A stretch of DNA of 64,000 bases, from the IMG/VR virus record IMGVR_UViG_3300012983_003032; one strand, given 5' to 3'. This DNA is from a virus. The notes under the pieces are model-generated. The model searched no databases. It was given only the letters and a program-made list of their open reading frames with translations, and was not told the DNA's origin. The position numbers and the translations under genes are program-made. Below are positions 5,913 through 64,000 of the stretch, one piece after another (the first letter of the stretch is position 1; every line of letters begins with the position of its first letter).

Positions 5913-5914
5913 CT

Positions 5915-6823: not shown

Positions 6824-6829
6824 TTATAT

Positions 6830-7045: not shown

Positions 7046-7059
7046 GTGAAAAATGTTAT

Positions 7060-7359: not shown

Positions 7360-7381
7360 AAATACTTAATACTAAATATAT

Positions 7382-7597: not shown

Positions 7598-7608
7598 GAT
7601 AGGAATAT

Positions 7609-51900: not shown

Positions 51901-54269
51901 ATGTTTGGGTTCCAATGTGGTTTATACAAGGAGAATCTTCTGCCATAAAAGATGGTAGACCTAATATGATTTTTAGGGCATACTGTAGAGTATTAAATGA
52001 TACTTATTTTGCGGGGTATTGGGAGGCAATTACACACAGAAGTTGGTGTAGCTCTTGGATAGAATACGTATTTAGGGCACAACCTCAAACTGCACAGTAT
52101 ATTGAAATTGATATGAATAGAATTGCCCAGGAACCGTTAGTTCTTTCTGGTTTTGATGTAGAACCATATAGTAATATGGATATTGCAAGTAAGTCAAATG
52201 ATTTAATTGAACTTAAAGGTGATATTCCTACTAAAGGTAAAACAAAATTATACAGTTCTCCTTTTGAGTTCCAAAAAGATATGTATTATCCAATTACATA
52301 CCCTGGACGAGCATGTGAATCTACTCCTTATAAGGTAATTGAAGGATATGGGTATACTTCTGTTATTCCTTGGATTTTACCAAGAACAGACTTAGAATCT
52401 ACTCAATTTGAAGACCCTAATGACTGGTGTTGTTTGAACAATATGGGTAATAATCCTGTGCAAACAAAATCTATAAGTCAAATGATGTCCCTCTTCAAGT
52501 TTCCTACAAGAAATACAGGATATAATACTATATGGAAAGGTTGGAAACCGTCATTACGTACAGGTATAAATGCTACTTGGTGGATAGAAAGGGGTAGTTA
52601 TACTCGTGGTTTCCAGAAAGTTTTGGTTAAGATTTTAACAACTTCTACTTTCTTTAAAAACCAAGCGGTAGAAACTTATAGAGACCCTTATATTGTTGAA
52701 AACTCTAATCCTCTTAGAACTATGACGAAGATTGCTTTACATCAAAAGGCTTGGTTGCAGCAGTGTAAGACTTTATATTTGGAAAACTTGGACTTCCAAG
52801 CAGTATTATCTATTATAAATACCTGTATTGACACAAGTATCCTAAGTCGTAGTATTAAAGGTAGAAAATTGTATGGTCAATTTGATAGTATTTATTATCA
52901 CTATTGGATTGATAAAGCTTATGACTTATTTTCAGACTCTAATACTAAACAACGTTTACGTGAGGCATTTGACAGGGTTATTGGTCAACTAGATAACTTT
53001 ATAAAAGGCAATCGTTATCCAAATTTCAAAAGAATTGGAATAAATCGTATAGACTTAACAATGGATAAATGGAATTATAATGGTATGATAGAGACTTATA
53101 AAAAAATGAGTAATCTTGCATCTTATATAAACGACAGTAACTCTTCAACTGGTGATATGACATTTATCGGTGACTTTATGTATGCTTACTTAAATGTATT
53201 ATATGAATACAGAAAGTTCTTTATAAATAAAAGATGTAATAAAATTGACGGTACTTTATGGACTATGAGAGAACTAGAGGGTGCCATACCTATGGTCACA
53301 AAGAATATTAAAAAACCTAGTGACCCAAGTGGTGGTGGACAAACTGGTGCAAATGGTAATGCAACAGGTACCCCACAATGGTCGTATAAAGTAGATTATT
53401 ATTCTGTTAATAATAATAACTTTGATAAAATCCAGGCTGGTGCCGAAATAACTCAACCTTTGAATATGGATAGAACAAAGTACGTTTATATTGAAGTAAA
53501 ATATGTAGACAAACTTGTAGTTGAGGATTATCTCGAAAAAGTTAAGAATAATAGATGGGACGAATCTAAGGCAGGTCGTTATATATTTATTCCTGAGAGT
53601 CAAAAGTGGGCAGAATTACCATTTGATGGTAAGTATAGATATGAGTCTACTGAATTTTTGGAAAACTTGGCAAAAGAGGTTTATAACGAAAAGGCTAAAA
53701 AAGTTGGAAGACTAGATTTATTGAAAAACATAAATGAAAATATTCAGGAGTGTAAATTTGATATAAAGTGGTCTGACGGTAGTGGTGGTCTTAATGAAGT
53801 TATAACAGGTGGGAAGACAAGAAAAGAGACATTAGATATGACTAATCATTTCCCATACGTTTATAAAAAGCCAAAAACTGAAGATTATCCAAGTATCATA
53901 TTTAATGTAATGAGTGGTATTGACCTTACTAAAGTAAGTGATATCGCAACAAAGATAGAAGACCCTTCTGGTGCATTAAGTACAGTATGTTATCTTAAAC
54001 TGGATAAAGACTACTGGCAGATACGTATTCCAGAAGATAAGATGCCTTTAACTGTAGGATATTTAACTAACCTTAGTATTAAAACATTATTGTCATCTTT
54101 AGATTACTACGACGTACCTGATATATCATTCCCAGGTGCAGCAACAGGCGCATTTGGTTATATGTTATATCCAATTGTTGAGGAACAGGCTAACTCTATT
54201 CCTGGTATTGGTGTAGACTTGAATGGTATAAGTGAGAAAATTAAAGAGTATTATAAAATAGGGGGCTAA
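48924..54269 (+). CDS. giant tail fibre / host-recognition protein (1781 aa) with Trp/Tyr-rich region
   Basis: TTG start after AAGGA. Contains WGWLWWGWEYYLPGTYNGY...WPWCPHYYSDGWYEW and S/G-rich spacers. Confidence 0.55.
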   Translation: MENYVNFLSDTETSSSSYRNRVDRLENYNKYLKDNFFTGSKFKSITDLAKFLRLKVVDANSIDVINSIKPPAMGNDLNDPETEMVTGMLQHLQASEFVQMFLDSYMAPLNSDIKWRLGEVTGTKIFNYIDGKALYEPDKISQLVQYDEFGRIDTTANFRYKVKIDGLGSSIRSAEEYLVNYFFPPYTKDAFAGLDTKYIADEAIKKRVWVDTIYNDYNEIVPCKVCGKKGGHWHYPDMNNDMVNITFDTKNLMSMRENPTYRKVAFKPINDNISLLQRGFEYVTGIVSTYLTEWDISLYIQEGLLSDTAGVTPSTLTICNRITKDNPCKLTGSNALNFGVLNGAISKLDISSGLIPCKAEWDPSAYPLSTYWWPLETKPRGKTNSVSDQLPTFYDEAKKTWSNVNIGSKSTRDKIRFFDGRGAAYSGWRSWDRMKYASSIYTTPDDGLSDVDVIHMCEETADFTFCDTLDKNGQIVDGEIQQIINLFLEEEGMGGIAEGSDEDDYYDGQKATTVPEINIDDSGDDDGRWKSTCKSFVRKYFSRNSTKDNALKVGKKAGNGFMNAMMGVSNDATSAGTNTVNGNAGSANGSTDTSNAVPSLLNTDASVNGQYSRQDGVSQWSPALYGGPHGRFYSPKTLQAWGQVGNPFLRDIPRIDNPVNNSTFHSKTWNFSGVENFYTLTENLGTEDPSRSPTKGLSILKKGSLTYTQQAVWVLNTHWVYNEYQRRSRKKWGWLWWGWEYYLPGTYNGYTLTYTGRTGVKLKWESTGYISSWSNVCTNWPWCPHYYSDGWYEWNTYYSYTNSHQSYWTKTFYGYGTVRQYNGSSIVSTGSSSSNSYGSSSSSGYGGRATSGTRQLYLLKSASFVTTYEAYYKKWEIEYKKRPLLHASPAAKWRITPAVSYSAQIRIEPVYRSFWDRVYNWIFRHSTLTVKYVYSLGNMRTTHRLTFPNSGYKIVRNAMTTSGSNTGYPYLSSYEEQSFIEHVLGKNEGAMKNVWVPMWFIQGESSAIKDGRPNMIFRAYCRVLNDTYFAGYWEAITHRSWCSSWIEYVFRAQPQTAQYIEIDMNRIAQEPLVLSGFDVEPYSNMDIASKSNDLIELKGDIPTKGKTKLYSSPFEFQKDMYYPITYPGRACESTPYKVIEGYGYTSVIPWILPRTDLESTQFEDPNDWCCLNNMGNNPVQTKSISQMMSLFKFPTRNTGYNTIWKGWKPSLRTGINATWWIERGSYTRGFQKVLVKILTTSTFFKNQAVETYRDPYIVENSNPLRTMTKIALHQKAWLQQCKTLYLENLDFQAVLSIINTCIDTSILSRSIKGRKLYGQFDSIYYHYWIDKAYDLFSDSNTKQRLREAFDRVIGQLDNFIKGNRYPNFKRIGINRIDLTMDKWNYNGMIETYKKMSNLASYINDSNSSTGDMTFIGDFMYAYLNVLYEYRKFFINKRCNKIDGTLWTMRELEGAIPMVTKNIKKPSDPSGGGQTGANGNATGTPQWSYKVDYYSVNNNNFDKIQAGAEITQPLNMDRTKYVYIEVKYVDKLVVEDYLEKVKNNRWDESKAGRYIFIPESQKWAELPFDGKYRYESTEFLENLAKEVYNEKAKKVGRLDLLKNINENIQECKFDIKWSDGSGGLNEVITGGKTRKETLDMTNHFPYVYKKPKTEDYPSIIFNVMSGIDLTKVSDIATKIEDPSGALSTVCYLKLDKDYWQIRIPEDKMPLTVGYLTNLSIKTLLSSLDYYDVPDISFPGAATGAFGYMLYPIVEEQANSIPGIGVDLNGISEKIKEYYKIGG

Positions 54270-54271
54270 AA

Positions 54272-55111
54272 ATGATTTTATGTATAACGAATTATAGGGA
54301 GTCTGATATATTATGTTTAAATTGTGAAATACAAAAGTTTTTAAAATCTTTTGAAAATTGTCAAGTTTATATATATCATGACGAAGATTATTCAATTTGC
54401 AGAGATAGATATTTAGAGTCCCCAAATATTCATATTTTGACAGAAAATATGAATAAAGGTACTTTATACGGTAGGATAAAAATTATAAATTCAATCCCCT
54501 CAGAATTTGATAATGAGTTTTTATTGTGGTTGGATTCAGATGATATTTTGACAAATATATCTTTTTTAAAAAAAGTAGATACAGACTTTAAGAACTTTGA
54601 CGTTATAGCTCAAGATGATTTAAGTATTAAGGCAATATGGACAAAAATTGTAAAATTGAAAATTTTCAAACAAATTATTCCTACAATAAAACAATATCAA
54701 GGATTAAAAGTTAGAACATCTGAATGTAATATTTTAACAGCGGGAATATTAGATTTATGTTATAATAAAAATATACCTTATCTAATTTGTGAAACAAACT
54801 GGATTAAATATAAAGGTATTCATCAACCTTTCAATATACTAAAATCTAATTTTGATTGTGGGGATTTTGAAAAAACGAAATATTTGTTACAAGATTTGAT
54901 ACAATGGGTAATTTGGGAAGAAAAAGAACCACCTAGTTTTAATATAAACATGGGTAATTGTAATCATGTATATGAAGAAAATAAAGAATCCTTCAATAAA
55001 CTTAGACAAATTAAAGAATATATAAACTTGATAAATAATTATGTTGAAGAAATAAGTATTGATATGCCTACAGATTACAAAGAAATAATAAATAAAAATT
55101 TTAAGATTTAA
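54272..55111 (+). CDS. GT-A-like glycosyltransferase candidate (279 aa)
   Basis: YIYHDED and LLWLDSDDIL (DxD) arrangement reminiscent of the 7609 GT; weak. Confidence 0.4.
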   Translation: MILCITNYRESDILCLNCEIQKFLKSFENCQVYIYHDEDYSICRDRYLESPNIHILTENMNKGTLYGRIKIINSIPSEFDNEFLLWLDSDDILTNISFLKKVDTDFKNFDVIAQDDLSIKAIWTKIVKLKIFKQIIPTIKQYQGLKVRTSECNILTAGILDLCYNKNIPYLICETNWIKYKGIHQPFNILKSNFDCGDFEKTKYLLQDLIQWVIWEEKEPPSFNINMGNCNHVYEENKESFNKLRQIKEYINLINNYVEEISIDMPTDYKEIINKNFKI

Positions 55112-55195
55112 TTTCATTTTTGAAAATAAAAACTAATTTTTAAAAGTTTAAACATACTATACGGTTTTAAAATAGTATATTATTTCAAAAATACA

Positions 55196-55687
55196 TTGGA
55201 GGAGAAAATGATTTTAACAGAATATGTTAATTCAGCAAACGTAAATGATTCAATCAAAAAATATTTAAAAGACGAGAAAAATTTTTCTGATGAAAGAAAA
55301 ACTTCCGAAATTAAAGATATGATTACTAGTGCTTACAATTATGGTGTTTTTAGCTTATTAAATGATAGAAAAGCCTCTAAAGACAGAACCAAATTGGATA
55401 AAACTAAAGAAATTACTGCCTATTTACCTGATATGTTTACCAATTCTAATATGGGTGAACAACTTACAACGTCGATAATGCAGGCAATTAAAACAAACAG
55501 TAGTAATTATATTTTGAATATAGGGTATGAAACTATTATCCCCGACGATATTAAAAAAGCTTTACAAATTGCATATGCAATAGGTATAACAGCAGGATTT
55601 GATATTTCAAGTGACCCCGAATTGAAATCAATATATCAGGCAAATATCGAAAGGTTTATCAAACACGGGGCTGGGAATAATGTATAA
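55196..55687 (+). CDS. hypothetical protein (163 aa)
   Basis: SD GGAGG. Confidence 0.45.
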   Translation: MEEKMILTEYVNSANVNDSIKKYLKDEKNFSDERKTSEIKDMITSAYNYGVFSLLNDRKASKDRTKLDKTKEITAYLPDMFTNSNMGEQLTTSIMQAIKTNSSNYILNIGYETIIPDDIKKALQIAYAIGITAGFDISSDPELKSIYQANIERFIKHGAGNNV

Positions 55688-55943
55688 GTTTAGTAGAAAC
55701 TTTTCAAATAATCTACTAAAAAATACGGGGATTGTTCTAACCGAAGACAATGCAGCATATATTAAATCTATTTGTAAAAATACTGAACCTTATCGTAAGA
55801 TAGATAATAAAGGTAGGAACTCAGAGTATTTTACTTTTAGATTAGAAGACAATTTGGTCACCTTAGTATGTGATGCAGATAAAAAGTTAATAGTAACGTG
55901 TATCATTGAAACACATGATAGACCACAATTTAGGAAAAAATAA
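55680..55943 (+). CDS. hypothetical protein (87 aa)
   Basis: Overlapping start. Confidence 0.4.
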   Translation: MYKFSRNFSNNLLKNTGIVLTEDNAAYIKSICKNTEPYRKIDNKGRNSEYFTFRLEDNLVTLVCDADKKLIVTCIIETHDRPQFRKK

Positions 55944-55945
55944 AT

Positions 55946-56218
55946 ATGACTGTAAAAACAATAAACTTTGTAAGTGATAATCCTAGGGAGAAGTTAGCCT
56001 GCGTTTTTGTCTTAGATGATAATAATACAGAACTTAAAAAGATGTCGTTTTATAATGACGATAAAGACGTGGCAATGGAGCCAGAATTAGCACAAACTAT
56101 TGATAGTCTTCCAGAGTTCTTAGAATATGTTTATAATATGGGAAAGGACGGTGTTAAGGTAGACTTTATAACTTCAGATATCGAAGTTCCGTCAGATGAC
56201 GAAGAAGAAACTAATTAA
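55946..56218 (+). CDS. hypothetical acidic protein (90 aa)
   Basis: ORF. Confidence 0.4.
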   Translation: MTVKTINFVSDNPREKLACVFVLDDNNTELKKMSFYNDDKDVAMEPELAQTIDSLPEFLEYVYNMGKDGVKVDFITSDIEVPSDDEEETN

Positions 56219-56240
56219 ATAAATTGGAGGTTATATATAA

Positions 56241-57914
56241 ATGGGAAAAATCCTAAAATTTGGAAATGACGCAAGAAGTTTAGTTCTTGACGGTATTAAT
56301 GAACTTGAAGAGGCAGTAACTTGTACACTTGGCCCAAAAGGACGTACTGTTATTTTAGACAGTGGTAATGGTCATCCTATTGTTACTAAAGACGGTGTTT
56401 CTGTTGCAAAGTTCATTGACTTTTCTGATAAATATAAAAATATTGGTGCAAGTTTCATACAAGAAGCAGCAAGAAAAACCAATGCTGTTGCAGGTGATGG
56501 TACTACAACTGCAACTCTTATCACATCGGAATTATGTAAAGCAGGACATGAATTGGTTTCTCAAAAATTTGACGCAGTTGACGTTAAAAAAGGATTTGAG
56601 AAAGCTAAAGATGCAGTAATTGAAGTATTAAATACTCAAAAAAGAGTTATTTCTGAGGAAGACGATATTTTACACATTGCAACTATTTCTGCAAATAATG
56701 ACGAAGAAATTGGTCAATTTATCTGTGACGCTTTTACACATATTGGAGAAGGTGGTATTGTTGGTGCAATGGACGCACATAACAGAACAGGAAAGACATC
56801 TATTACATACTCTAATGGTATGGAGTTTTTGAAGGGATTTTTCTCTTCTTCGGTAGTTAATACCGATATGGAAACTTGTTGTTTTGAAAATCCTAGATAC
56901 CTTATTTATGGTAATAAGGTTGATGATTTTAAGAGTATTGCACAAATTATACAGATGGCTAACAAAAATAACGAAAGTCTTGTTATTATCGCCCCTTATT
57001 TTGAAGACACATTCCAAGAAAACTTTATTACAAATGTTGAAAAAGGATATATTAGTGCAGTAGCAGTTGTTGCCCCTGGAAATAGTAGAGACGATATAAA
57101 TGAAAACCTTGGTGATATTGCTGCTTTGGTAGGTGCAACTATTATTGAGGGAAAGGGTAAAGACTCAATCTCTATAGATAAGTTTGAATACAAACATTTA
57201 GGTTCTTCTGAGTCAATTACAGTTGCTCGTGGTAAAACAACTATCACAGGTGGTAAGGGCACTAAGGAGGATATAGACAAAAGGGTTGCAGATATTAAAA
57301 AACTTATTGAAGGTAGTGAGGCAGACGAAACATTTAAGACAGATTATGAATTAGATATGTTAAAAGAACGTATTGCAAAACTTTCAGGTGGTATAGCAAC
57401 AATTCATATTGGTGCATTCTCAGATATCGAAGCAAAGGAAAAGAAAGATAGATATGAAGATGCTATCAATGCCGTAAATGCTGCAATTCGTGACGGTATT
57501 ATCGCAGGTGGTGGTGCTGGTCTTTTACATGCTGTAAAGACTGTTGCAAATAGTCATAAACCATTAGAAAACCCTACACAGGAAGTGGGATTCCAAAAAT
57601 TTCTTAAAATTATGGAAATGCCAGCAAGAAGAATTATCGAGTCTACTGGTAAAGACCCAGGTTATTATGCAGAAAAGATTAAGGAAAGTGATAATCTCTC
57701 TTATGGATTTAATGCAAAACTTGAAGAATTTTCAGACGACCTTTATAGGGACGGAGTAGTAGACCCAGTAAAAGTAACTGAGGCAGCATTGTCATACGGT
57801 ACTTCTGTAGCTGGAACTTTTATTACTTCTTCATGTGTTATTACTTCTGACGTTTATAATTGTAGGGTTTCTGCAAATGACCCTATTATGAGTGAGGAGG
57901 TAATATATGAGTAA
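56241..57914 (+). CDS. groEL: GroEL/Hsp60-family chaperonin
   Basis: KFGNDAR...LGPKGRTVIL...PIVTKDGVSVAKFIDF...AGDGTTTATL...ATISANNDEEIG tracks E. coli GroEL over the equatorial domain. 557 aa. No GroES-like gene adjacent. Confidence 0.9.
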   Translation: MGKILKFGNDARSLVLDGINELEEAVTCTLGPKGRTVILDSGNGHPIVTKDGVSVAKFIDFSDKYKNIGASFIQEAARKTNAVAGDGTTTATLITSELCKAGHELVSQKFDAVDVKKGFEKAKDAVIEVLNTQKRVISEEDDILHIATISANNDEEIGQFICDAFTHIGEGGIVGAMDAHNRTGKTSITYSNGMEFLKGFFSSSVVNTDMETCCFENPRYLIYGNKVDDFKSIAQIIQMANKNNESLVIIAPYFEDTFQENFITNVEKGYISAVAVVAPGNSRDDINENLGDIAALVGATIIEGKGKDSISIDKFEYKHLGSSESITVARGKTTITGGKGTKEDIDKRVADIKKLIEGSEADETFKTDYELDMLKERIAKLSGGIATIHIGAFSDIEAKEKKDRYEDAINAVNAAIRDGIIAGGGAGLLHAVKTVANSHKPLENPTQEVGFQKFLKIMEMPARRIIESTGKDPGYYAEKIKESDNLSYGFNAKLEEFSDDLYRDGVVDPVKVTEAALSYGTSVAGTFITSSCVITSDVYNCRVSANDPIMSEEVIYE

Positions 57915-58212
57915 AACAGATAAATTATTAAAATCAGACGGTCAATTATATCAACCTATGGTTATATATAATCAAACTATAAGGGTTGGATTTCATAAGG
58001 AAAGGATGGGGTATACATTTTATTCACCAAACGTATTCCTCGACCCTGATAGTGCAGTAAAATATATGTCAACTTTTATAAAAGAATTAATTTCTGAAGG
58101 AACTTTACCTCAAGAAGTTATAAAAGATGGTCAGATTGACTATAGTATGATTGAAACAACTGTAGCACCTTGTATTTTATCTGCAATTGAAGCCGTGGAT
58201 GAGGATGAATAA
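57907..58212 (+). CDS. hypothetical protein (101 aa), not GroES-like
   Basis: Overlaps groEL stop; no GroES mobile-loop/beta-barrel pattern. Confidence 0.4.
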   Translation: MSKTDKLLKSDGQLYQPMVIYNQTIRVGFHKERMGYTFYSPNVFLDPDSAVKYMSTFIKELISEGTLPQEVIKDGQIDYSMIETTVAPCILSAIEAVDEDE

Positions 58213-58551
58213 ATGAAATTTAAAATGGATAGAGTTATGTCTGGTACAATAATAGGCGTAGCACTTGCATTTTTAATACAAACAGTTTTGTTTGGGGTAT
58301 TTGGTCTACTATGGATTGGACTATTGATAGACCTTCTACCAATAGGATTTGCAGTAGTCACTATTTGTAGTCTTTATAGGTATATGAAAAAGGTTGAAGC
58401 AGGAAATGAAAAAATGAAAGCCTATACCAAATATAATGACATACGATATATGACTAAACAGCAATATGACACATATCGAGAAAAAGGATATATCGTTACT
58501 GATGACGGTATTGCAATTATTAAAGAAAATATAGAGGAAGTGATATTATGA
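58213..58551 (+). CDS. holin-like small membrane protein (2 TM + charged C-terminus)
   Basis: ~45-aa hydrophobic hairpin followed by K/E-rich tail; no adjacent lysin identified. Confidence 0.35.
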   Translation: MKFKMDRVMSGTIIGVALAFLIQTVLFGVFGLLWIGLLIDLLPIGFAVVTICSLYRYMKKVEAGNEKMKAYTKYNDIRYMTKQQYDTYREKGYIVTDDGIAIIKENIEEVIL

Positions 58552-58997
58552 TAGAAGAAAAGAAAACAGAAAAGAAAACAGAAAAGAAAACAGAGAAGGA
58601 AGTTGCTGCTAAACCAAAAACTTTTATGGGTAAAGAAGTAAAAAATATGGAAATTGTATGTAGTCGTCACGGTAATATTATAGGTGGTGCATACTATACA
58701 ACCTATAATATTTATAAAAAAGACCCTAACGTAGAAGGTGGTGTAAAAGTAGTGGAAAAAAATAACGTATTCTGTATTGCTTGTTTAAATGAAATATACA
58801 GAATGTTACAACATACTCCAAGACTTGATGATGAGGGAAAACCTATTTACTTAAAAGACGCTGAGGGTAAGGATATTTTGGATAAAGATGGAAATCCTAT
58901 TCCAGATACTCTAGTAGGTAATATTGACGTTTCAATCGAACTTGCTGACCCACAAAAAGAGGGTGCTTCGGAAGAAAAAAATAGTCCTGCTGAATAA
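58548..58997 (+). CDS. hypothetical protein with N-terminal KKTE repeats and CxxH...CxxC zinc-ribbon-like pairs
   Basis: MIEEKKTEKKTEKKTEKE from a 12-bp DNA repeat; CSRHG ... CIAC. Confidence 0.45.
   Translation: MIEEKKTEKKTEKKTEKEVAAKPKTFMGKEVKNMEIVCSRHGNIIGGAYYTTYNIYKKDPNVEGGVKVVEKNNVFCIACLNEIYRMLQHTPRLDDEGKPIYLKDAEGKDILDKDGNPIPDTLVGNIDVSIELADPQKEGASEEKNSPAE
58557..58596. repeat. 12-bp tandem repeat (aaaagaaaacag, about 3.3 units)
   Basis: Direct reading of the sequence. Confidence 0.7.
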
Positions 58998-58999
58998 AA

Positions 59000-59030
59000 T
59001 AAAAAGCCACCTTGTTAGGTGGCTTTAATT
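59000..59030. terminator. bidirectional intrinsic terminator (agccacct-tgtt-aggtggct)
   Basis: A-run before, T-rich after; between convergent genes. Confidence 0.6.
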
Positions 59031-59047
59031 TGTATAGAAGGGGTTGT

Positions 59048-59188
59048 TTAACCGTTCATTCTTGTTAAAGTTTTATAGTGCCCAGGGTTATTTTTATCTT
59101 CAACAATTCTTACAGAATGATTCTTTTTTGCTTCTTCTAACTGTTCTAGTGTAACCTCTACACCATCAAGATATATTTTTTTATCCAT
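59048..59188 (-). CDS. hypothetical small protein (46 aa; not in ORF table)
   Basis: Minus-strand ATG at 59188-59186: MDKKIYLDGVEVTLEQLEEAKKNHSVRIVEDKNNPGHYKTLTRMNG. Confidence 0.3.
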   Translation of the reverse strand: MDKKIYLDGVEVTLEQLEEAKKNHSVRIVEDKNNPGHYKTLTRMNG

Positions 59189-59267
59189 AAAAAATTATCC
59201 TCCTAAATATAGATATTCAATTAGTAATGCAACTAATTATTGAAACCAATAATAATGGAGAATTATA

Positions 59268-59783
59268 ATGTTTTTAACAGATGAACCAAATAGCATAGAA
59301 GATTTTCTTAAAGCAGTAAAGTTTATTGCCCCAAAGGGAATGAACCTAAAATATTTTATCGTCCCTACAGAAAGGGACACTCCAACCCTTGCTACAACTG
59401 CAAAGGATAATGGATTTTTGAATCAAGATAACTTTAAGTCTAATGTAGATAATGTACCAGGTGTTACTGACACAATTATTTATCGTAAGGCAGATACCTC
59501 AGAAAAACAATCAGTTAGTCACCCTTCAATAGACGTTACTACTATCCCAAATGACTTTCCTATAACAAAAGCTACTCTTGACGATACTGTTACTACTGAC
59601 TTTTCTGATAAACAGCCAATTAAAACTGATATCATTATTTCAGGTGGAGAAGTTATGCCTCCAAATGCTGGTGTTAAAGTACTTGAGTCTACCGAAAGAT
59701 TTCATGACGTAATGCTTAATGAAGATATGGGTATATTTCCAAAATTTACAGTATTCCATTTTGTTAAGGAGAGAGTAGAATAA
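59268..59783 (+). CDS. hypothetical protein (171 aa)
   Basis: ORF. Confidence 0.45.
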   Translation: MFLTDEPNSIEDFLKAVKFIAPKGMNLKYFIVPTERDTPTLATTAKDNGFLNQDNFKSNVDNVPGVTDTIIYRKADTSEKQSVSHPSIDVTTIPNDFPITKATLDDTVTTDFSDKQPIKTDIIISGGEVMPPNAGVKVLESTERFHDVMLNEDMGIFPKFTVFHFVKERVE

Positions 59784-60244
59784 TGAATATAAACAATTTA
59801 GATACTTTAAGTAAGTCTGACGTAGGAATTATTAACTCCGCAGAACAAAGTATTATTAAAACTGTAAATAGTCTTATTGCTGACTGTCAATACCTTGCAA
59901 ATGTATTAGTACAGTATAGAGATGCTATGGTTCAAAATGTTACTGCGTCTGTTCAAGAGTCAGATATTCTTAGAAAATATAGTTCGGGACCTAGTGGTAA
60001 TTCTTATAATTTACCAGGCGTATTTGCAACAACTTTAGGTACATATGACCTTGAAAAAATGAATCAAGATAATGCAAGACTTGAAAGTGCTATGCAGACT
60101 AAAAAAGAAAGTGAAAAACAGAGAAATACTACTTTTGCATTAGTTACCCAAACATATGGGGATATACGTCAAAAGTTAAATTCTCTTGCTAATGAAAATC
60201 AGCAGATTATTCAATATATTGAAGCATTAAAAGATAAAGACTAA
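59783..60244 (+). CDS. hypothetical coiled-coil protein (153 aa)
   Basis: ATGA overlap. Confidence 0.45.
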   Translation: MNINNLDTLSKSDVGIINSAEQSIIKTVNSLIADCQYLANVLVQYRDAMVQNVTASVQESDILRKYSSGPSGNSYNLPGVFATTLGTYDLEKMNQDNARLESAMQTKKESEKQRNTTFALVTQTYGDIRQKLNSLANENQQIIQYIEALKDKD

Positions 60245-60277
60245 AAAAGAAAAGACCCCTTTTGGGGTCTTTTTTAT
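60245..60277. terminator. bidirectional intrinsic terminator (agacccc-tttt-ggggtct + TTTTTT)
   Basis: Between convergent operons. Confidence 0.65.
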
Positions 60278-60510
60278 TGAACTTTTTTAATTTCAAACTT
60301 ATTATAGGGGTAATCTTTCATTGCTGCACTTAGCAAGTTTTGTGCCTCTAAATATGACCAACATCTTCCACCACAAACTGCTCTAGTTGTATTATCTTTC
60401 ACTATCCATATAGACGATTTTTCTTCATGTAATTCTTCAAGTTCTTCAAGACCACTACTTACACCAAACAATTTGTCTAACTCGTTTTGTGAAATTCCAC
60501 CATTACCCAT
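60274..60510 (-). CDS. hypothetical small protein (78 aa)
   Basis: Last gene of the minus-strand NAD cluster operon. Confidence 0.4.
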   Translation of the reverse strand: MGNGGISQNELDKLFGVSSGLEELEELHEEKSSIWIVKDNTTRAVCGGRCWSYLEAQNLLSAAMKDYPYNKFEIKKVQ

Positions 60511-60635
60511 CTTTTATTTTTCCTTAAATCTATTAGGATTTTTCAAGTCAACAGAAACAAGTTCACGACCTTTATTTGCATTTTCCATAATACCCAATAA
60601 CATAAAACTCAAAAAAACAATAGCAATTACCATAC

Positions 60636-61304
60636 TTAATCCTCTCTTGGATGACAGTCTTTAGTAGAAAGTAAACTTTCATTAACCAAAAAATATTCCT
60701 GCTTTTCAAGTTCAATATCTACCAATTTGTCATAAAGTTCTTTATATTTATCAGTATAACTCTTTAACCAATCGTAGTTTAGCAATTTCTCCAAGTCTCG
60801 CACACCATAAATATTATTTATGATATGAATTTGGTCTTCATGAAGTCGTGGATACTGACTAAATCCTGCTAAGTGATTATCTCTCAATGATATAATATCT
60901 TCTAGAGTTACTTTTTTAATAGCCCTTTTAAATAAAGTTTCATACGAAAAATATGTATTTTTGTACTTATAGTATCCATTACCGTCACCATAACGTCTAA
61001 GAAAAGTTATTAAACAATTTGACCAACGTTTTCCAAGCCAAGGGTTGTCATCTAATTCATTTAGATATATACAGTCAACTTGACTATCTACAAAAGAATC
61101 AAAAAATTGTTTAATTTTGGCAACGGATTCTTCAGACAAAAGATTTGACTGTTCTTGTATTCCGTCAAGATAACTATTGCCATACATCCTAATATCATCT
61201 TTAAAGTCTTTCTTACTCATATTTTGCCCTTTAACGAAGTATTGCCTGCTGTACTTCCATAACTTTAATTGCTGCCTTGTGACTTTCGTCATTAAGACAA
61301 GCAC
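60636..61304 (-). CDS. hypothetical protein (real start probably Met at 61223, giving ~195 aa)
   Basis: Table ORF overlaps pncA by 74 nt; the internal Met (MSKKDFKDD) removes the overlap. Confidence 0.45.
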   Translation of the reverse strand: MLVLMTKVTRQQLKLWKYSRQYFVKGQNMSKKDFKDDIRMYGNSYLDGIQEQSNLLSEESVAKIKQFFDSFVDSQVDCIYLNELDDNPWLGKRWSNCLITFLRRYGDGNGYYKYKNTYFSYETLFKRAIKKVTLEDIISLRDNHLAGFSQYPRLHEDQIHIINNIYGVRDLEKLLNYDWLKSYTDKYKELYDKLVDIELEKQEYFLVNESLLSTKDCHPRED

Positions 61305-61755
61305 AAAGATTCTGGTGTACTACAATAGGTGTTTCTGGGAAGAGTGCCTTCAAAATAGTGAAATTACTTGCTACACAAATCCCTGTGCAGACCCCGCTCA
61401 TTTCAATAACTTCTGGATTTACGTCATTGAGCTCATTTGCAAAGAAAACATCCCAATTATTGTATCCAAAACTTGGTTTATTAACATAGTAGTCAACAAA
61501 TGGTTTAAGTTCGTCTACAACTTCCCAACCCTCAGTGTCTTTAATACAATGTGGAACTGGGAGATTTTTTCCTTCCTGAGTTTCCATATAATTGTCATCG
61601 TGAGTATCACGAGTAGCAATAATTGTGTAACCTTTTTTTTCAAGTTCTTTTGCTTTATCAGCAATCCCTTTGATAATTCCTACTGCAGCGTCATTTTTAA
61701 GACTACCTGTGCAGAAGTCATTTTGCATGTCAACAATAATAAAATATTTTCCCAT
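61231..61755 (-). CDS. pncA: nicotinamidase/pyrazinamidase (isochorismatase-family cysteine hydrolase)
   Basis: FIIVDMQNDF (catalytic Asp), TRDTHDDNY...H (metal site), K in VNKPSFG, and nucleophile Cys in GVCTGICV. Confidence 0.75.
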   Translation of the reverse strand: MGKYFIIVDMQNDFCTGSLKNDAAVGIIKGIADKAKELEKKGYTIIATRDTHDDNYMETQEGKNLPVPHCIKDTEGWEVVDELKPFVDYYVNKPSFGYNNWDVFFANELNDVNPEVIEMSGVCTGICVASNFTILKALFPETPIVVHQNLCACLNDESHKAAIKVMEVQQAILR

Positions 61756-61767
61756 ATTACCTCCAAA

Positions 61768-62355
61768 TTAAAATTTATAAATTTCGGTTTTACCAGTGTT
61801 TGGTTCGATTTTCATCATATCCAAGTTTCTAAACTGAATATTTTTACTATTTATTAATTCATATGGTGTATCAGTTGTATGGTTATAGAATGAATATGCC
61901 GTTCTACCAAAAAGACCGTGTGTTACCCAAATAATATTTCTATCATCAGTTTTCTTAGACTTTAGAAACTCTCTAATATCTGTACCCATAGTCTCTACGA
62001 TAGCATCGGATATTCGGATATTCATATTATTTTTATTCAGCCCAGAACACTTATCAAATTCTTGTTCTGATATTTCCCAGAACTTTTTACCCGCAAGACC
62101 GGAACAGTCAAATTCTGAAAGTTTCGGAGTAACAATAACTTTCTTGTCAGGGAAGATAAATTTGGCAGTATTTATACACCTTTTTGCTGGTGAACAGAAT
62201 ATTTTATATTCACCATTTTTTGGTAAAAATTGTCCTACTTTTGACCACCATTTTTCAGTATCAAATGGTATAATATCAAAAGAGTCATAGTTTTTTACCA
62301 AGTCTCCACTGAGATTTGCCTCAGTTGGAGCGTGTCGTATAATAAATAAGTTCAT
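61768..62355 (-). CDS. histidine-phosphatase superfamily protein (PGAM-like)
   Basis: N-terminal LFIIRHAPTEAN (RH catalytic motif) and later VTHG. Confidence 0.6.
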   Translation of the reverse strand: MNLFIIRHAPTEANLSGDLVKNYDSFDIIPFDTEKWWSKVGQFLPKNGEYKIFCSPAKRCINTAKFIFPDKKVIVTPKLSEFDCSGLAGKKFWEISEQEFDKCSGLNKNNMNIRISDAIVETMGTDIREFLKSKKTDDRNIIWVTHGLFGRTAYSFYNHTTDTPYELINSKNIQFRNLDMMKIEPNTGKTEIYKF

Positions 62356-62419
62356 TAAAATCCTCTGTTATATATTAACATAAATCGAACTTCGTAAGAT
62401 TCCAGCTTTTAAGCTGGGG

Positions 62420-62629
62420 TTAGTTCATAGGGTTTTCTTCAAACTTATAGTTATACCCACAAAAATTAAAAGGTGTATTTTCTTCAAGGTAAGGAGACAT
62501 CTTATGCCAACCACCCATAATAGGGTCGTCAGCATGAAGTTTATCCTGCCAATATATCTGCTTACCTTCCTTTGCTGCCAAAATTACTTTTACCATGTCA
62601 TCATATGACATTTGATATAACTTTGTCAT
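62420..62629 (-). CDS. hypothetical small protein (69 aa)
   Basis: ATGA overlap with nadE stop region. Confidence 0.4.
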   Translation of the reverse strand: MTKLYQMSYDDMVKVILAAKEGKQIYWQDKLHADDPIMGGWHKMSPYLEENTPFNFCGYNYKFEENPMN

Positions 62630-63435
62630 ACTAAACCCTCTAATTCCTTAAAGTCTTCAAAGACAGGTAAATTAATATCAATTGTTGCCATAGGTACTAA
62701 CTTCAATACTGTATTTGGATTAAAGTGCATTTCTTTAATTTTTCTATACACTTTAAGTGATTTTGGTGGTAAATTATAACGAATAAGTTTATCAAGAGAC
62801 TCATATGTAAATCCTAAATTATCTTCGTCTGTCTTTCCACACATACCGTCAGATGGTGTCTTATGTACCAATTCTTTTGGAAGACCCATATAATCACCAA
62901 TCTGTAAAACTTCTGTTACAGTAAGTTTATTAAGAAGTGAAAAGTCCCCCATACAGTCACCCCCTTTGGAACTATATCCGAGGTAGTCTTCCGAAAAATT
63001 ACAGGTATTAGCCACAAATCCGTGATTAAGAGCAGCAACACCGTAAAGTGTGACCATACGAATACGAGCAGGTGTATTTGTTGAATACAAAGAGTTAGGG
63101 AACTCTTCACCGTCTTTTGCAGCAACACGAATGTTTTTTGTAAGTGCTTCATATGTGTCACCGATATTTACTGTAACTTTCTGAATACCTGTAACTTCAA
63201 AAACTTTATCAGAATCACTGATATCTTTCTGAACACCATTTGGCATTTGTACACCAATTACTCTATCTGGTCCGAGTGCTTCTGCAAGAAGGGCTGCACA
63301 AATAGTAGAGTCCTTACCACCAGAAATTCCTAAAACTGCAGGTGCATTTCCTTTATCGGAGAACCAATTTTTAGTCCAATCAATAATTTTATCGTGGACT
63401 TCTTTTACATTAAAATTATATTCCATATATTTCAT
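62626..63435 (-). CDS. nadE: NH3-dependent NAD+ synthetase
   Basis: PP-loop VLGISGGKDST and overall NadE-like length and organisation. SD AAGGA upstream. Confidence 0.8.
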   Translation of the reverse strand: MKYMEYNFNVKEVHDKIIDWTKNWFSDKGNAPAVLGISGGKDSTICAALLAEALGPDRVIGVQMPNGVQKDISDSDKVFEVTGIQKVTVNIGDTYEALTKNIRVAAKDGEEFPNSLYSTNTPARIRMVTLYGVAALNHGFVANTCNFSEDYLGYSSKGGDCMGDFSLLNKLTVTEVLQIGDYMGLPKELVHKTPSDGMCGKTDEDNLGFTYESLDKLIRYNLPPKSLKVYRKIKEMHFNPNTVLKLVPMATIDINLPVFEDFKELEGLV

Positions 63436-63444
63436 ACAATTTCC

Positions 63445-64000
63445 TTATTCTTCATTTTCAAATAAAAAATGTGCATCAGAAAATACTTTTTCTTCATTTA
63501 CCAAATGTGTTGGTGCAAATTGTCTTTCTTCATCTCTATCCGAATTTTGAAGTGCAAGTAGATGTTGGTCAACCTGATTACAGAATTTTTCGTACAATTC
63601 TTTTTTATTTGACTTAGCCAAATATTTACCAAAGGAGTATATATCAAATACCCAGTTGTCATAGTCTTCTTCGTCTTTTATATCACCATTATATGATATT
63701 TTAATATGACTATCCTTAAATAAATGATTTTCAAGAACCCAATAATACTTGATGTCTGTAATATTATTAAAGTCTATCCAACAATATGTACCGCCTTCAT
63801 TTACTCGAATAAATCCTTTAGGGGGATTAGATTGTGTATATTCGTCTGAAACAAGATATCCTTCATATTCGGAATCATAGTAATATAAATGTTGTTCATA
63901 GTCAGGGTCACCAACATATTGATGGACACCCTTTTTCCCTTTCCAAACAATTCCAAAAAAGTCTGTAAAAGTTACTTCACTTAATCCAAACTGATTTGCA
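63445..64000 (-). CDS. hypothetical protein, N-terminally truncated by window edge (C-terminal ~185 aa visible)
   Basis: Frame open from window end to TAA at 63447-63445; immediately upstream of nadE in the same operon. Confidence 0.4.
   Translation of the reverse strand, partial: ANQFGLSEVTFTDFFGIVWKGKKGVHQYVGDPDYEQHLYYYDSEYEGYLVSDEYTQSNPPKGFIRVNEGGTYCWIDFNNITDIKYYWVLENHLFKDSHIKISYNGDIKDEEDYDNWVFDIYSFGKYLAKSNKKELYEKFCNQVDQHLLALQNSDRDEERQFAPTHLVNEEKVFSDAHFLFENEE

What the first reader, a model, noticed from the sequence alone, without database searches (positions are those of the whole stretch)
60274..64000. Phage NAD+ metabolism operon: PncA nicotinamidase, histidine phosphatase, NadE, plus four unknown ORFs
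Seven co-directional, tightly packed minus-strand genes include NadE (deamido-NAD to NAD), PncA (nicotinamide to nicotinate) and a PGAM-like histidine phosphatase. These are interleaved with three uncharacterised proteins and a partial upstream ORF.

Several bacterial immune systems act by destroying NAD+ or producing ADPR-derived signals. Phages are known to carry NAD-reconstitution pathways, but these use different enzymes (Adps/Namat; Nampt/Nmnat). A PncA/NadE-centred module with a phosphatase and unknown partners is not one of the described arrangements. It could be a novel Preiss-Handler-type NAD+ reconstitution or ADPR-recycling counter-defence, with the unknown ORFs supplying the missing phosphoribosyltransferase/adenylyltransferase steps.
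Basis: partly seen in the sequence, partly recalled or inferred. Interest (0 to 1): 0.75.

Follow-up and report, generated by a model that had tools for sequence, protein, structure and literature searches.

The report
Phage nicotinamide-to-NAD salvage gene cluster
This is the tail end of a gene block in a giant gut or rumen bacteriophage that carries every enzyme needed to rebuild the cofactor NAD+ from nicotinamide; clusters like it were already reported in gut jumbo phages in 2024, and its "unknown" genes are lineage-specific orphans, not the missing enzymes.

Summary
Window 60274-64000 (minus strand) carries NadE, a nicotinamidase-type isochorismatase (PncA), an intact histidine phosphatase, three small or medium orphan ORFs, a 39-aa ORF and a truncated upstream ORF. 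A strong terminator hairpin ends the block.

An identical 84-kb metagenome contig extends the window by 9.4 kb. Directly upstream, on the same strand, it encodes canonical PncB (NAPRTase), NadD and an ADP-ribose-pyrophosphatase-like Nudix, plus a P-loop kinase and an M18 aminopeptidase. The Preiss-Handler route is therefore complete with ordinary enzymes.

The unknown ORFs do not supply missing steps. u194 and u69 occur only in this phage lineage, have no detectable fold, and u194 and u245 are absent or replaced in relatives.

The core PncA/PncB/NadE set resembles pncA-pncB(-nadE) operons of Lachnospiraceae-type Clostridia (about 40-54% identity). It recurs in other large phage contigs.

Li et al. 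2024 (Microbiome) already described complete Preiss-Handler clusters in gut "NAD-jumbo phages" and proposed counter-defence. I therefore call this a new member of a known kind; its function in immunity is untested.

Side observations: related phages combine PncA and NadE with NARP1-AP-like genes, and the window also encodes a eukaryotic-type topoisomerase IB.

The parts
63445..64000 (-). 3' part (184 of 245 codons) of orphan gene u245. The full gene would run to window-equivalent 64182.
   Evidence: The frame is open to the window edge. The full 245-aa gene is seen on identical contig L001 at 9254-9991. It has no Pfam, NCBIfam or PHROG hit. It is absent in L018 and replaced by unrelated 290-aa and 322-aa ORFs in L016 and L019.
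62626..63435 (-). NadE, an NH3-dependent NAD+ synthetase (269 aa, single domain)
   Evidence: Pfam NAD_synthase E 4.7e-43. TIGR00552 scores 140 bits against a cut-off of 63.65. PHROG 'NAD synthetase' E 6e-50. The PP-loop motif GISGGKDS is read directly from the sequence. At 269 aa there is no glutaminase domain.
62420..62629 (-). u69, a 69-aa orphan whose start overlaps the NadE stop by 4 bp
   Evidence: Coordinates. Only 3 homologue clusters exist in 5.8 billion proteins, all from this lineage. It is 74-94% identical in sister phages. There is no Pfam hit even at E<=10 and no significant PDB sequence hit (best E 0.13). The AF2 model has pLDDT 59 and the best Foldseek E-value is 1.9.
61768..62355 (-). 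Histidine phosphatase (branch 1, PGAM/PhoE/CobC-like), 195 aa, with an intact catalytic core. Substrate unknown.
   Evidence: Pfam His_Phos_1 E 1.1e-11. R7, H8, R59, E81 and H146 are invariant in 28 family members. It is 95-96% identical in L016 and L018, the most conserved gene of the block. Nearest PDB relatives are generic PGAM-family phosphatases, PhoE, fructose-2,6-bisphosphatase and CobC.
61231..61755 (-). PncA-type nicotinamidase (isochorismatase fold), 174 aa
   Evidence: Pfam Isochorismatase E 1.1e-24. The best PDB hit is the P. horikoshii pyrazinamidase/nicotinamidase 1ILW/1IM5. In that alignment D9, D50, H52, H69 and C127 match its D10, D52, H54, H71 and C133. D9, D50, H52, H69, K93 and C127 are invariant in 6 phage homologues, including the Phass-1 'nicotinamidase'.
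60636..61220 (-). u194, a 194-aa orphan protein
   Evidence: No Pfam, PHROG or NCBIfam hit. There are 7 homologue clusters. An exhaustive HMMER profile search of 1.84 billion representatives finds only 2. The AF2 model has pLDDT 61 and the best Foldseek PDB E-value is 1.2. It is 50-88% identical in L016 and L018. In L019 it is absent, and a 423-aa BspA-type LRR protein lies downstream of PncA after two small ORFs.
60514..60633 (-). u39, a small hydrophobic ORF that is an in-frame-shortened version of 71-74 aa orthologues
   Evidence: A gene is called on L001 at 12803-12922, mapped with window_pos = 73436 - L001_pos. It aligns to both ends of the 71-aa and 74-aa orthologues in L018 and L016.
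60274..60510 (-). u78, a 78-aa orphan and the last gene of the block
   Evidence: ORF. No family hit. It is 77% identical in L018 and 55% in L019.
60250..60273 (.). Intrinsic-terminator-like hairpin (AAAAGACCCC-AAAA-GGGGTCTTTT followed by a T-run) between the convergent genes, ending the block
   Evidence: Terminator scan on L001 at 13163-13186 (13 sites found against 4.4 expected). The sequence was read directly.

Best explanation
The window holds the distal two-thirds of the last transcription unit of a roughly 10-kb co-directional block in a very large bacteriophage. The host is probably a Lachnospiraceae-like member of the Bacillota in a gut or rumen habitat. The block encodes a complete nicotinamide-to-NAD+ salvage route through deamidated intermediates.

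Proposed pathway:
1. PncA deamidates nicotinamide to nicotinate plus NH3.
2. PncB, just outside the window, joins nicotinate to PRPP to give NaMN.
3. NadD, also outside the window, adenylates NaMN to NaAD.
4. The single-domain, NH3-dependent NadE amidates NaAD to NAD+.
5. A Nudix hydrolase of the ADP-ribose-pyrophosphatase type, in the same unit, would split ADP-ribose into AMP and ribose-5-phosphate. The host's PRPP synthetase can turn the latter into PRPP.

The phage can therefore keep the NAD+ pool up during infection. In principle it can rebuild NAD+ from both products of NAD+ cleavage.

Shown here: the gene identities, the catalytic motifs, the gene order and the conservation.

Inferred: the flux, the link through host Prs, and the selective purpose. 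That purpose could be supplying the phage's needs, offsetting NAD+-depleting immunity, or both.

The histidine phosphatase is an active-looking, strongly conserved accessory enzyme with unknown substrate. u69, u194, u39, u78 and u245 are lineage-specific orphans that the pathway does not need.
For: Extension of the window. L001 is identical to window 52626-64000 (0 mismatches over 11,375 bp) and continues for 9,435 bp. On the same strand it carries, in order: AAA_28 kinase-like, M18 aminopeptidase, PncB, NadD, u236 (membrane protein), Nudix, u245, NadE, u69, HisPhos, PncA, u194, u39, u78.

Enzyme identities.
- PncB passes two NCBIfam cut-offs: NF003704 394 against 379, and TIGR01514 345 against 270.
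- NadD matches NCBIfam nicotinate-nucleotide adenylyltransferase models below their cut-offs (NF005519 E 1e-33; TIGR00482 108 against 112) and passes the Pfam CTP_transf_like gathering score.
- NadE scores TIGR00552 140 against 64.
- PncA has the nicotinamidase triad and the D-x-H...H metal site.
- The Nudix box is intact and has a proline at +15. The best PDB hits are ADP-ribose pyrophosphatases (8WV3, 9JAX, 1V8I, NUDT5).

Operon structure. Terminator-like hairpins occur only after M18, after PncB and after u78. NadD to u78 therefore looks like one unit.

Conservation.
- The same block occurs in sister contigs of 318 kb and 442 kb and in two short contigs. Enzyme identities there are 66-96%.
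- PncA and NadE also occur together on nine more distant large-phage contigs, five of them with canonical PncB; at least two also carry NadD and one a Nudix. One of these has a contiguous NadD-NadE-PncB-PncA set.

Literature. 174 of 668 gut jumbo phages encode complete salvage or Preiss-Handler pathways. A pncB-nadD-nadE cluster was illustrated and counter-defence was proposed (PMC11662467).
Against: - No enzyme activity, expression timing or NAD+ measurement exists for this or any other phage Preiss-Handler cluster.
- PncA is far below the E. coli-type NCBIfam equivalog cut-off (28.5 against 174). Its assignment rests on motifs, PDB neighbours and context.
- NadD is just under its TIGRFAM cut-off.
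- No PRPP synthetase is encoded in the 20 kb examined, so ADPR recycling depends on the host.
- The roles of the M18 peptidase, the kinase-like protein (Pfam AAA_28 36 bits; PHROG 'thymidylate kinase' 45 bits) and the histidine phosphatase are unexplained.
- Bacterial identity of the host is supported, though not proven, by SD-like motifs upstream of 54% of genes against a 6.6% background. The Lachnospiraceae-like assignment rests only on PncB similarity.
Confidence: 0.72

Rival explanations
1. The block is a dedicated counter-defence system, in effect a fourth NARP. It is selected specifically to defeat NADase immunity (Sir2, TIR, SEFIR, aRES and similar). The accessory genes are integral to this. 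The histidine phosphatase would remove a phosphate from ADPR-1''-phosphate, 2'-phospho-ADPR or ribose-1,5-bisphosphate, which is the role the Macro phosphatase Adpp plays in NARP1-AP. The Nudix protein would feed ribose-5-phosphate towards PRPP. The orphan proteins might act as inhibitors or sponges.
For: - NARP1, NARP2 and NARP3 show that phage NAD+ synthesis does defeat NAD+-depleting defence.
- PncA takes exactly the nicotinamide released by NADases, and the Nudix matches ADPR pyrophosphatases.
- In other large gut phages, NadE and PncA flank a NARP1-AP-like set made of a Prs-like protein, a Nampt-like protein and a Macro domain. This ties phage PncA and NadE to proven counter-defence genes.
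- The histidine phosphatase and u69 are the most conserved proteins of the block, at 95-96% and 88-94% identity.
- The slot between Nudix and NadE, and the slot after PncA, hold different orphan genes in each relative, as in accessory or anti-defence islands.
Against: - Homologues of the histidine phosphatase in other big phages sit in non-NAD contexts: an RNA ligase region, a ThyX/dCMP-deaminase/thymidylate-synthase region, or among unknown genes. The family is therefore not NAD-specific.
- More distant phages keep PncA, PncB and NadE without the phosphatase, u69 or u194.
- There is no fold or family evidence for any orphan.
- The core equals a normal host operon.
- No experiment exists.
Confidence: 0.2
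2. The genes are not about NAD+. On this view the isochorismatase-fold amidohydrolase, the PP-loop amidoligase and the phosphatase act on another substrate, for example a modified nucleotide or a DNA-hypermodification precursor.
For: - Isochorismatase, PP-loop ATPase and histidine phosphatase are all broad superfamilies.
- PncA misses the NCBIfam equivalog cut-offs.
- Homologues of the histidine phosphatase lie among nucleotide-metabolism genes in other phages.
Against: - NadE passes the TIGR00552 equivalog-domain cut-off.
- PncA has the nicotinamidase-specific metal site and triad.
- Bona fide PncB and NadD lie in the same block.
- The same enzymes co-occur repeatedly in phages and in host operons.
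Confidence: 0.04
3. The block is a passively carried host cassette, or bacterial DNA mis-joined to a phage contig, with no selected role in the phage.
For: - pncA-pncB, pncB-nadE and pncA-nadE-pncB adjacency is common in Lachnospiraceae, Butyrivibrio and Ruminococcus genomes. Of the 80 loci, 24 have PncA next to PncB and 12 have NadE.
- The M18 peptidase scores as a bacterial equivalog (621 against 529).
Against: - Identity to the nearest bacterial proteins is only about 40-54%, so this is not a recent capture.
- The block is embedded between phage-lineage genes on contigs of 84, 318 and 442 kb with conserved flanks, including GroEL and a 1781-aa protein.
- Its enzymes remain intact and highly conserved while neighbouring orphans turn over.
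- The exact NadE protein is seen on 8 contigs from several samples.
Confidence: 0.03

Closest known systems
Preiss-Handler NAD+ gene clusters of gut 'NAD-jumbo phages' (Li et al. 2024, Microbiome, PMC11662467; example Kuafu_71 pncB-nadD-nadE)
   Same: - It is a very large gut-type phage. Sister contigs are 318 and 442 kb, and the exact NadE lies on a contig of 0.2-1 Mb.
- pncB, nadD and nadE are clustered and give a complete Preiss-Handler route.
- Counter-defence and supply of NAD+-using enzymes were both proposed there.
   Different: - Here the cluster also holds PncA, so the input is nicotinamide. It further holds an ADPRase-like Nudix, a conserved histidine phosphatase, a kinase-like protein, an M18 peptidase and several orphans.
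- The likely host is Bacillota, based on PncB relatives and strong SD usage, rather than the Bacteroidota predicted for the Kuafu clade.
- I could not test whether this phage belongs to one of their named clades.
Bacterial pncA-pncB(-nadE) salvage operons (Clostridia loci found here; P. aeruginosa pncA-pncB1-nadE, PMC7318152)
   Same: The same three enzymes are adjacent and co-directional. The nearest bacterial PncB, PncA and NadE are from Lachnospiraceae, Eubacterium and Butyrivibrio.
   Different: - Identity is only about 40-54%.
- The bacterial loci examined have no NadD, Nudix, histidine phosphatase, M18 or kinase-like gene within 6 kb.
- The phage gene order is different.
NARP2 (phage Nampt + Nmnat; Osterman et al. 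2024, bioRxiv 10.1101/2024.02.11.579819)
   Same: It builds NAD+ from nicotinamide plus PRPP using phage-encoded salvage enzymes. It needs ATP and PRPP rather than ADPR.
   Different: NARP2 takes the amidated route in two steps through NMN. Here the route is deamidated and has four steps: PncA, an NAPRTase-type PncB (not Nampt), NadD and NadE.
NARP1 and NARP1-AP (Adps + Namat, with or without the Macro phosphatase Adpp; bioRxiv 10.64898/2026.01.28.702374)
   Same: It deals with both NADase products, and a phosphatase gene sits inside the NAD operon.
   Different: - There is no Prs-like Adps, no Nampt-like Namat and no Macro domain in the 20 kb around the window.
- ADPR would be hydrolysed by the Nudix protein rather than pyrophosphorylated.
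- The phosphatase has a histidine-phosphatase fold, and its substrate is unknown.
- Related phages (L012, L014, L104, Phass-1) do combine NARP1-AP-like genes with PncA and NadE.
NARP3 (PnuC transporter + NadR-like enzyme; Sci Adv 2026, PMC13464706)
   Same: It is a phage-encoded NAD+ salvage module. A weak AAA_28 hit (the family of the NadR kinase domain) lies at the head of the block.
   Different: - There is no PnuC and no NadR adenylyltransferase-kinase fusion.
- The kinase-like protein scores equally well as a thymidylate-kinase-like PHROG.
- The route starts from nicotinamide, not from nicotinamide riboside.

Membership tests
Nicotinamidase PncA (isochorismatase superfamily) | Isochorismatase fold or domain | tested here: met
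   Pfam PF00857 E 1.1e-24, 87.9 bits against a gathering score of 27.
Nicotinamidase PncA (isochorismatase superfamily) | Asp-Lys-Cys catalytic triad | tested here: met
   D9 and C127 align with D10 and C133 of P. horikoshii PncA. D9, K93 and C127 are invariant in 6 phage homologues. K93 was placed by motif spacing; the pairwise alignment in that loop is uncertain.
Nicotinamidase PncA (isochorismatase superfamily) | Metal-binding D-x-H ... H site, which separates nicotinamidases from other isochorismatase-fold hydrolases (published PncA structures; my knowledge) | tested here: met
   D50, H52 and H69 align with D52, H54 and H71 of 1ILW/1IM5 and are invariant in the phage set.
Nicotinamidase PncA (isochorismatase superfamily) | Score above the curated equivalog cut-off (NF008623, E. 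coli type) | tested here: not met
   28.5 bits against a cut-off of 174. The model is specific to the longer enterobacterial type.
Nicotinamidase PncA (isochorismatase superfamily) | Nicotinamide deamidase activity | not testable with these tools
   Needs an enzyme assay.
NH3-dependent NAD+ synthetase NadE | NAD_synthase domain above the curated cut-off | tested here: met
   PF02540 147.5 bits. TIGR00552 140 bits against a cut-off of 63.65.
NH3-dependent NAD+ synthetase NadE | PP-loop SGGxDS ATP-binding motif | tested here: met
   GISGGKDS at residues 36-43, read from the translation.
NH3-dependent NAD+ synthetase NadE | No N-terminal glutaminase (CN-hydrolase) domain | tested here: met
   The protein is 269 aa and the NAD_synthase domain covers residues 15-243. 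There is no other domain.
Histidine phosphatase superfamily, branch 1 | Catalytic core: Arg-His nucleophile motif, a second Arg, an acidic residue and a second His | tested here: met
   R7, H8, R59, E81 and H146 are invariant in 28 homologues. Pfam E 1.1e-11. The motif reads RHA rather than RHG.
Histidine phosphatase superfamily, branch 1 | Assignment to a characterised subfamily (CobC, dPGM, PspA, PhoE) | tested here: not met
   All NCBIfam equivalogs fall far below their cut-offs, for example CobC at 31 against 163. PDB profile hits are weak and generic.
Complete Preiss-Handler pathway (PncB + NadD + NadE, with PncA for nicotinamide input) | Nicotinate phosphoribosyltransferase present | tested here: met
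   L001 6055-7281, outside the window. NF003704 394 against 379 and TIGR01514 345 against 270.
Complete Preiss-Handler pathway (PncB + NadD + NadE, with PncA for nicotinamide input) | Nicotinate-mononucleotide adenylyltransferase present | tested here: inconclusive
   L001 7388-7954. CTP_transf_like 64 bits against a gathering score of 21. The top NCBIfam hits are all NadD models, but TIGR00482 scores 107.8 against a cut-off of 112.45.
'NAD-jumbo phage' (Li et al. 2024) | Phage genome larger than 200 kb that encodes at least one complete NAD+ synthesis pathway | tested here: met
   The exact NadE lies on a contig in the 0.2-1 Mb class. Sister contigs are 318 and 442 kb. For pathway completeness see above. 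Phage identity rests on three things: IMG/VR relatives, PHROG hits for helicase and GroEL, and the orphan-rich SD-using gene structure. No capsid or terminase gene was identified here.
NARP1 / NARP1-AP | Prs-like Adps and Nampt-like Namat (plus Macro Adpp) | tested here: not met
   None of these domains occurs among the genes of L001. They are present in L012, L014, L104 and Phass-1.
NARP2 | Nampt plus Nmnat | tested here: not met
   The phosphoribosyltransferase is an NAPRTase equivalog with an NAPRTase_N domain, not NAMPT_N. The adenylyltransferase is of the NadD type.
NARP3 | PnuC transporter plus bifunctional NadR-like enzyme | tested here: not met
   There is no PnuC and no NadR fusion in L001. 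Only a weak AAA_28 hit was found, at 36 bits.

The most novel reading that the evidence does not exclude
The block is a fourth, experimentally uncharacterised NAD+ reconstitution pathway that works through deamidated intermediates and uses both NADase products.
- Nicotinamide is processed by PncA, PncB, NadD and NadE.
- ADP-ribose is processed by the Nudix ADPRase to ribose-5-phosphate and then PRPP.
- The unusually conserved histidine phosphatase replaces the Macro phosphatase of NARP1-AP in function, though it is not related to it. It would strip the extra phosphate from ADPR-1''-P, 2'-P-ADPR or ribose-1,5-bisphosphate, so the phage also escapes NADases that make phosphorylated ADPR.
- The related PncA + Prs-like + Nampt-like + Macro + NadE clusters in other gut phages would then be a 'deamidated NARP1'.
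Probability: 0.15. Interest if true: 0.7.

Novelty: new member of a known kind. Interest (0 to 1): 0.38.

Why it matters
NAD+ is a central battleground between bacteria and phages. Three phage NAD+-restoring pathways have been proven experimentally, and none of them uses the deamidated Preiss-Handler route. This locus is a compact, fully specified candidate for testing that route. It offers a four-enzyme core, an ADPRase and a conserved phosphatase, probably from a phage of an anaerobic gut Firmicute. If it works, the list of metabolite-level counter-defences grows, and nicotinamidase and NadE become markers for them. As it stands, the locus mainly confirms in more anatomical detail what a 2024 metagenomic survey already reported. 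It also shows that the 'unknown partners' are not hidden pathway enzymes.

Tried and rejected
1. DNA similarity to GenBank phages. Megablast of the region gave no match. tblastn with two large neighbouring ORFs also gave no match. The lineage has no close sequenced relative.

2. u194 as a hidden enzyme.
- No Pfam, PHROG or NCBIfam hit.
- Only 7 near-identical clusters.
- An exhaustive profile search found 2 representatives.
- The AF2 model is poor, pLDDT 61, and Foldseek found nothing.
- No relative in IMG/VR.
- Rejected as a phosphoribosyltransferase or adenylyltransferase, since PncB and NadD exist anyway.

3. u69 as a Tad2/DUF2829-like Thoeris sponge. This lead came from a remembered motif resemblance.
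- No Pfam hit at E<=10.
- No meaningful PDB sequence hit.
- AF2 pLDDT 59 and best Foldseek E-value 1.9.
- Not supported.

4. Histidine phosphatase as an NAD-dedicated family, tested by guilt by association. Homologues at 37-49% identity sit in unrelated phage neighbourhoods. Only the close lineage keeps it beside NadE and PncA. Not supported as a general rule.

5. Kinase-like protein as the NadR-type ribosylnicotinamide kinase. The AAA_28 hit is only 36 bits. PHROG 'thymidylate kinase' scores 45 bits. There is no PDB hit. Left open.

7. A literature search for an experimentally tested PncA-based phage pathway found none.

Full report
**What is in the window**

ORF listing and a frame translation show a tight run of minus-strand genes from 64000 down to 60274:
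- an ORF open to the window edge (63445-64000, at least 184 codons);
- NadE (62626-63435);
- a 69-aa ORF whose ATG overlaps the NadE stop by 4 bp (62420-62629);
- a histidine phosphatase (61768-62355);
- an isochorismatase-fold protein (61231-61755);
- a 194-aa ORF (60636-61220);
- a 78-aa ORF (60274-60510).

Directly after the last stop codon lies a 10-bp GC-rich hairpin followed by a T-run (60250-60273). It faces a convergent plus-strand gene.

The family matches are unambiguous:
- NAD_synthase: E 4.7e-43, and TIGR00552 at 140 bits against a cut-off of 63.65.
- Isochorismatase: E 1.1e-24.
- His_Phos_1: E 1.1e-11.

**What lies beyond the edge**

The exact NadE protein occurs on eight public metagenome contigs. 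One of them, L001 (84 kb), is identical to window 52626-64000 over 11,375 bp and continues for 9,435 bp.

On the same strand and directly upstream it encodes, in order:
- a 294-aa and a 74-aa orphan;
- a P-loop kinase-like protein (AAA_28 36 bits; PHROG 'thymidylate kinase' 45 bits);
- an M18 aminopeptidase (NCBIfam 621 against 529);
- PncB, nicotinate phosphoribosyltransferase (NF003704 394 against 379; TIGR01514 345 against 270);
- NadD (CTP_transf_like 64 bits; all top NCBIfam hits are NadD models; TIGR00482 108 against 112);
- a two-TM membrane protein (u236);
- a Nudix hydrolase;
- the 245-aa orphan whose 3' end is the window's partial ORF.

Terminator-like hairpins occur only after M18, after PncB and after u78. 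The window genes therefore belong to an eleven-gene unit running from NadD to u78.

**Enzyme checks**

*PncA.* The best PDB hit is the Pyrococcus horikoshii pyrazinamidase/nicotinamidase (1ILW/1IM5).
- D9 aligns with its catalytic D10.
- D50, H52 and H69 align with its zinc ligands D52, H54 and H71.
- C127 aligns with its nucleophile C133.
- D9, D50, H52, H69, K93 and C127 are invariant in six phage homologues, including the annotated nicotinamidase of phage Phass-1.
- The protein does not reach the E. coli-type NCBIfam cut-off. 'Nicotinamidase' therefore rests on motifs, structural neighbours and context.

*NadE.* It has the PP-loop motif GISGGKDS and no glutaminase domain, so it is the NH3-dependent type.

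*Histidine phosphatase.* R7, H8, R59, E81 and H146 are invariant across 28 homologues. It matches no characterised subfamily.

*Nudix.* The Nudix box is intact, with a proline 15 residues downstream. Its best solved relatives are ADP-ribose pyrophosphatases: 8WV3, 9JAX, 1V8I and NUDT5.

**The unknown ORFs**

*u194*
- It has seven homologue clusters in 5.8 billion proteins, all from this lineage.
- An exhaustive HMMER profile search of 1.84 billion representatives found only two.
- Its AF2 model is poor (pLDDT 61) and matches nothing.

*u69*
- It has three clusters.
- It has no Pfam hit even at E<=10 and no meaningful PDB hit.
- Its model is poor (pLDDT 59) and the best Foldseek E-value is 1.9.
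- A remembered resemblance to the Tad2/DUF2829 motif was therefore not borne out.

*u78 and u245.* Neither has a family hit.

*Comparison with sister contigs.* The sister contigs are L016/L017, L018 (318 kb) and L019 (442 kb).
- u245 is absent in L018. It is replaced by unrelated ORFs in L016 and L019.
- u194 is only 50% identical in L016 and absent in L019, where a BspA-type LRR protein lies downstream of PncA.
- The enzymes, by contrast, are well kept: HisPhos 95-96%, PncB 92-93%, M18 89-94%, NadE 87%, PncA 86-87%. u69 is at 88-94%.

The orphans are not the missing pathway steps, and most are dispensable. Only u69 and the phosphatase look constrained.

**Wider distribution**

A scan of IMG/VR with NadE returned eight large viral contigs (up to 259 kb) whose NadE is about 50% identical.
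- Seven of the eight have PncA within a few kb.
- Four have canonical PncB.
- L008 has PncA-NadE-PncB-NadD-Nudix.
- L011 has NadD-NadE-PncB-PncA contiguous, next to DHFR and a glycyl-radical enzyme.
- None has the histidine phosphatase, u69 or u194.

Homologues of the phosphatase form about 108 clusters, almost all on phage-like contigs. Outside the close lineage they sit in unrelated neighbourhoods: an RNA ligase region, a ThyX/dCMP-deaminase/thymidylate-synthase region, or among unknown genes. The family is therefore not NAD-specific.

**Origin and host**

The nearest cellular PncB proteins (50-54% identity) are from Lachnospiraceae, Eubacterium, Butyrivibrio and Roseburia, many of them rumen or gut MAGs. 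Among the 80 bacterial loci retrieved, 24 have PncA adjacent to PncB and 12 have NadE adjacent. None has NadD, Nudix, the phosphatase or M18 nearby.

The phage core therefore looks like an old capture of a Clostridia-type pncA-pncB(-nadE) operon. NadD, an ADPRase and lineage-specific genes were then added to it.

SD-like motifs precede 54% of predicted genes against a 6.6% background. That fits a phage of SD-using Bacillota. The assignment is an inference, not a host match.

**Literature**

- Li et al. 2024 (PMC11662467) reported that 174 of 668 animal-gut jumbo phages encode complete salvage or Preiss-Handler pathways. [quoted passage not shown]
- The experimentally proven phage pathways are NARP1 (Adps + Namat), NARP2 (Nampt + Nmnat), NARP3 (PnuC + NadR-like) and NARP1-AP, which adds a Macro-domain ADPR-1''P phosphatase.
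- I found no paper that tests a PncA/PncB/NadD/NadE phage pathway.

**Mechanism proposed**

The steps are:
1. nicotinamide is converted to nicotinate plus NH3 by PncA;
2. nicotinate plus PRPP gives NaMN, by PncB;
3. NaMN is converted to NaAD by NadD;
4. NaAD plus NH3 gives NAD+, by NadE.

The Nudix protein would convert ADP-ribose to AMP plus ribose-5-phosphate, and host Prs can turn the latter into PRPP.

The gene identities and motifs are shown. The flux, the dependence on host Prs and the purpose are inferred. The neat reuse of PncA's ammonia by an NH3-dependent NadE is also an inference.

The data cannot tell whether selection acts through general NAD+ supply or through escape from NADase immunity. 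One piece of guilt by association favours the immunity link. In L012, L014, the human faecal phage contig MT835544 (L104) and phage Phass-1, PncA and NadE flank a Prs-like, Nampt-like and Macro-domain gene set. That is the NARP1-AP gene set.

By analogy, the histidine phosphatase next to NadE in the window's lineage might process a phosphorylated ADPR derivative. That remains a hypothesis, and the non-NAD contexts of its homologues weaken it.

**Verdict**

The module is of the Preiss-Handler type and an ADPR-processing enzyme is present.
- It is a new member of a known kind, the jumbo-phage Preiss-Handler NAD+ cluster.
- It has some unexplained accessories: the conserved phosphatase, u69, the kinase-like protein and the M18 peptidase.
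- Interest is moderate. It is a well-defined candidate for testing a fourth NAD+ reconstitution route, but a specialist would not find it surprising after the 2024-2026 literature.

Noticed in passing
window 11795-13498 (+): A 567-aa protein has the full eukaryotic-type topoisomerase IB architecture: Topoisom_I_N 131 bits, Topoisom_I core 152 bits and Topo_C_assoc 70 bits. Its best PDB matches are 6Z01 and human topoisomerase I at 210-220 bits. tblastn finds no match in 50,697 GenBank phage records. A full-text search found no listed paper that mentions 'topoisomerase IB' together with the jumbo/huge-phage terms. This is unusual for a bacteriophage and worth its own follow-up.
   Followed up: partly
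L012 6280-11627; L014 3313-10789; L104 (MT835544) 4005-7543; L007 (Phass-1 OQ749652) 4480-8918: Other large gut phages place PncA and NadE around a Prs-like gene, a Nampt-like gene and a Macro-domain gene, which is the NARP1-AP gene set. This suggests a 'deamidated NARP1' that would make NaAD from nicotinate and ADPR-PP and finish with NadE. I found no description of it. The Macro hits are weak (19.8-26.9 bits against a gathering score of 22).
   Followed up: partly
window 8655-10064 (-); L001 1-252: There is an IS605-type TnpB/OrfB transposase (PHROG transposase E 7e-85). A second TnpB-like gene (441 aa, with HTH_OrfB_IS605, OrfB_IS605 and Cas12f1-like_TNB domains) lies about 9 kb beyond the window's end, upstream of the NAD block.
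   Followed up: no
window 56241-57914 (+): A phage-encoded GroEL chaperonin (PHROG E 6e-128) lies about 2.4 kb from the NAD block on the opposite strand. It is conserved in the same position in the 318-kb and 442-kb sister contigs.
   Followed up: no
window 17197-54269 (+): The long plus-strand ORFs tested (832, 645, 1000, 723, 1066 and 442 aa) have no Pfam or PHROG hit, and a 439-aa and a 493-aa ORF have no Pfam hit. The two tested by tblastn have no GenBank phage match. A 1781-aa ORF has no Pfam family on record and was not scanned here. No capsid or terminase gene was recognised and the window has no tRNA. The lineage is very distant from sequenced phages.
   Followed up: partly
window 60514-60633 (-): The 39-aa ORF matches both ends of 71-74-aa orthologues in sister phages. 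The window's copy therefore carries an in-frame internal deletion of about 32 codons in a small hydrophobic protein.
   Followed up: partly
L001 4662-5993 (outside the window, window-equivalent 67443-68774): An M18-family aminopeptidase scores as a bacterial equivalog (621 bits against 529). It sits at the head of the NAD block and is conserved in the three sister contigs that reach this position (85-94% identity). Its connection to NAD+ metabolism, if any, is unexplained.
   Followed up: no
L011 12646-14874: A 233-kb IMG/VR phage contig carries a full pyruvate-formate-lyase-like glycyl-radical enzyme (PFL-like 667 bits) immediately after its NadD-NadE-PncB-PncA set, and a DHFR just before it.
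   Followed up: no
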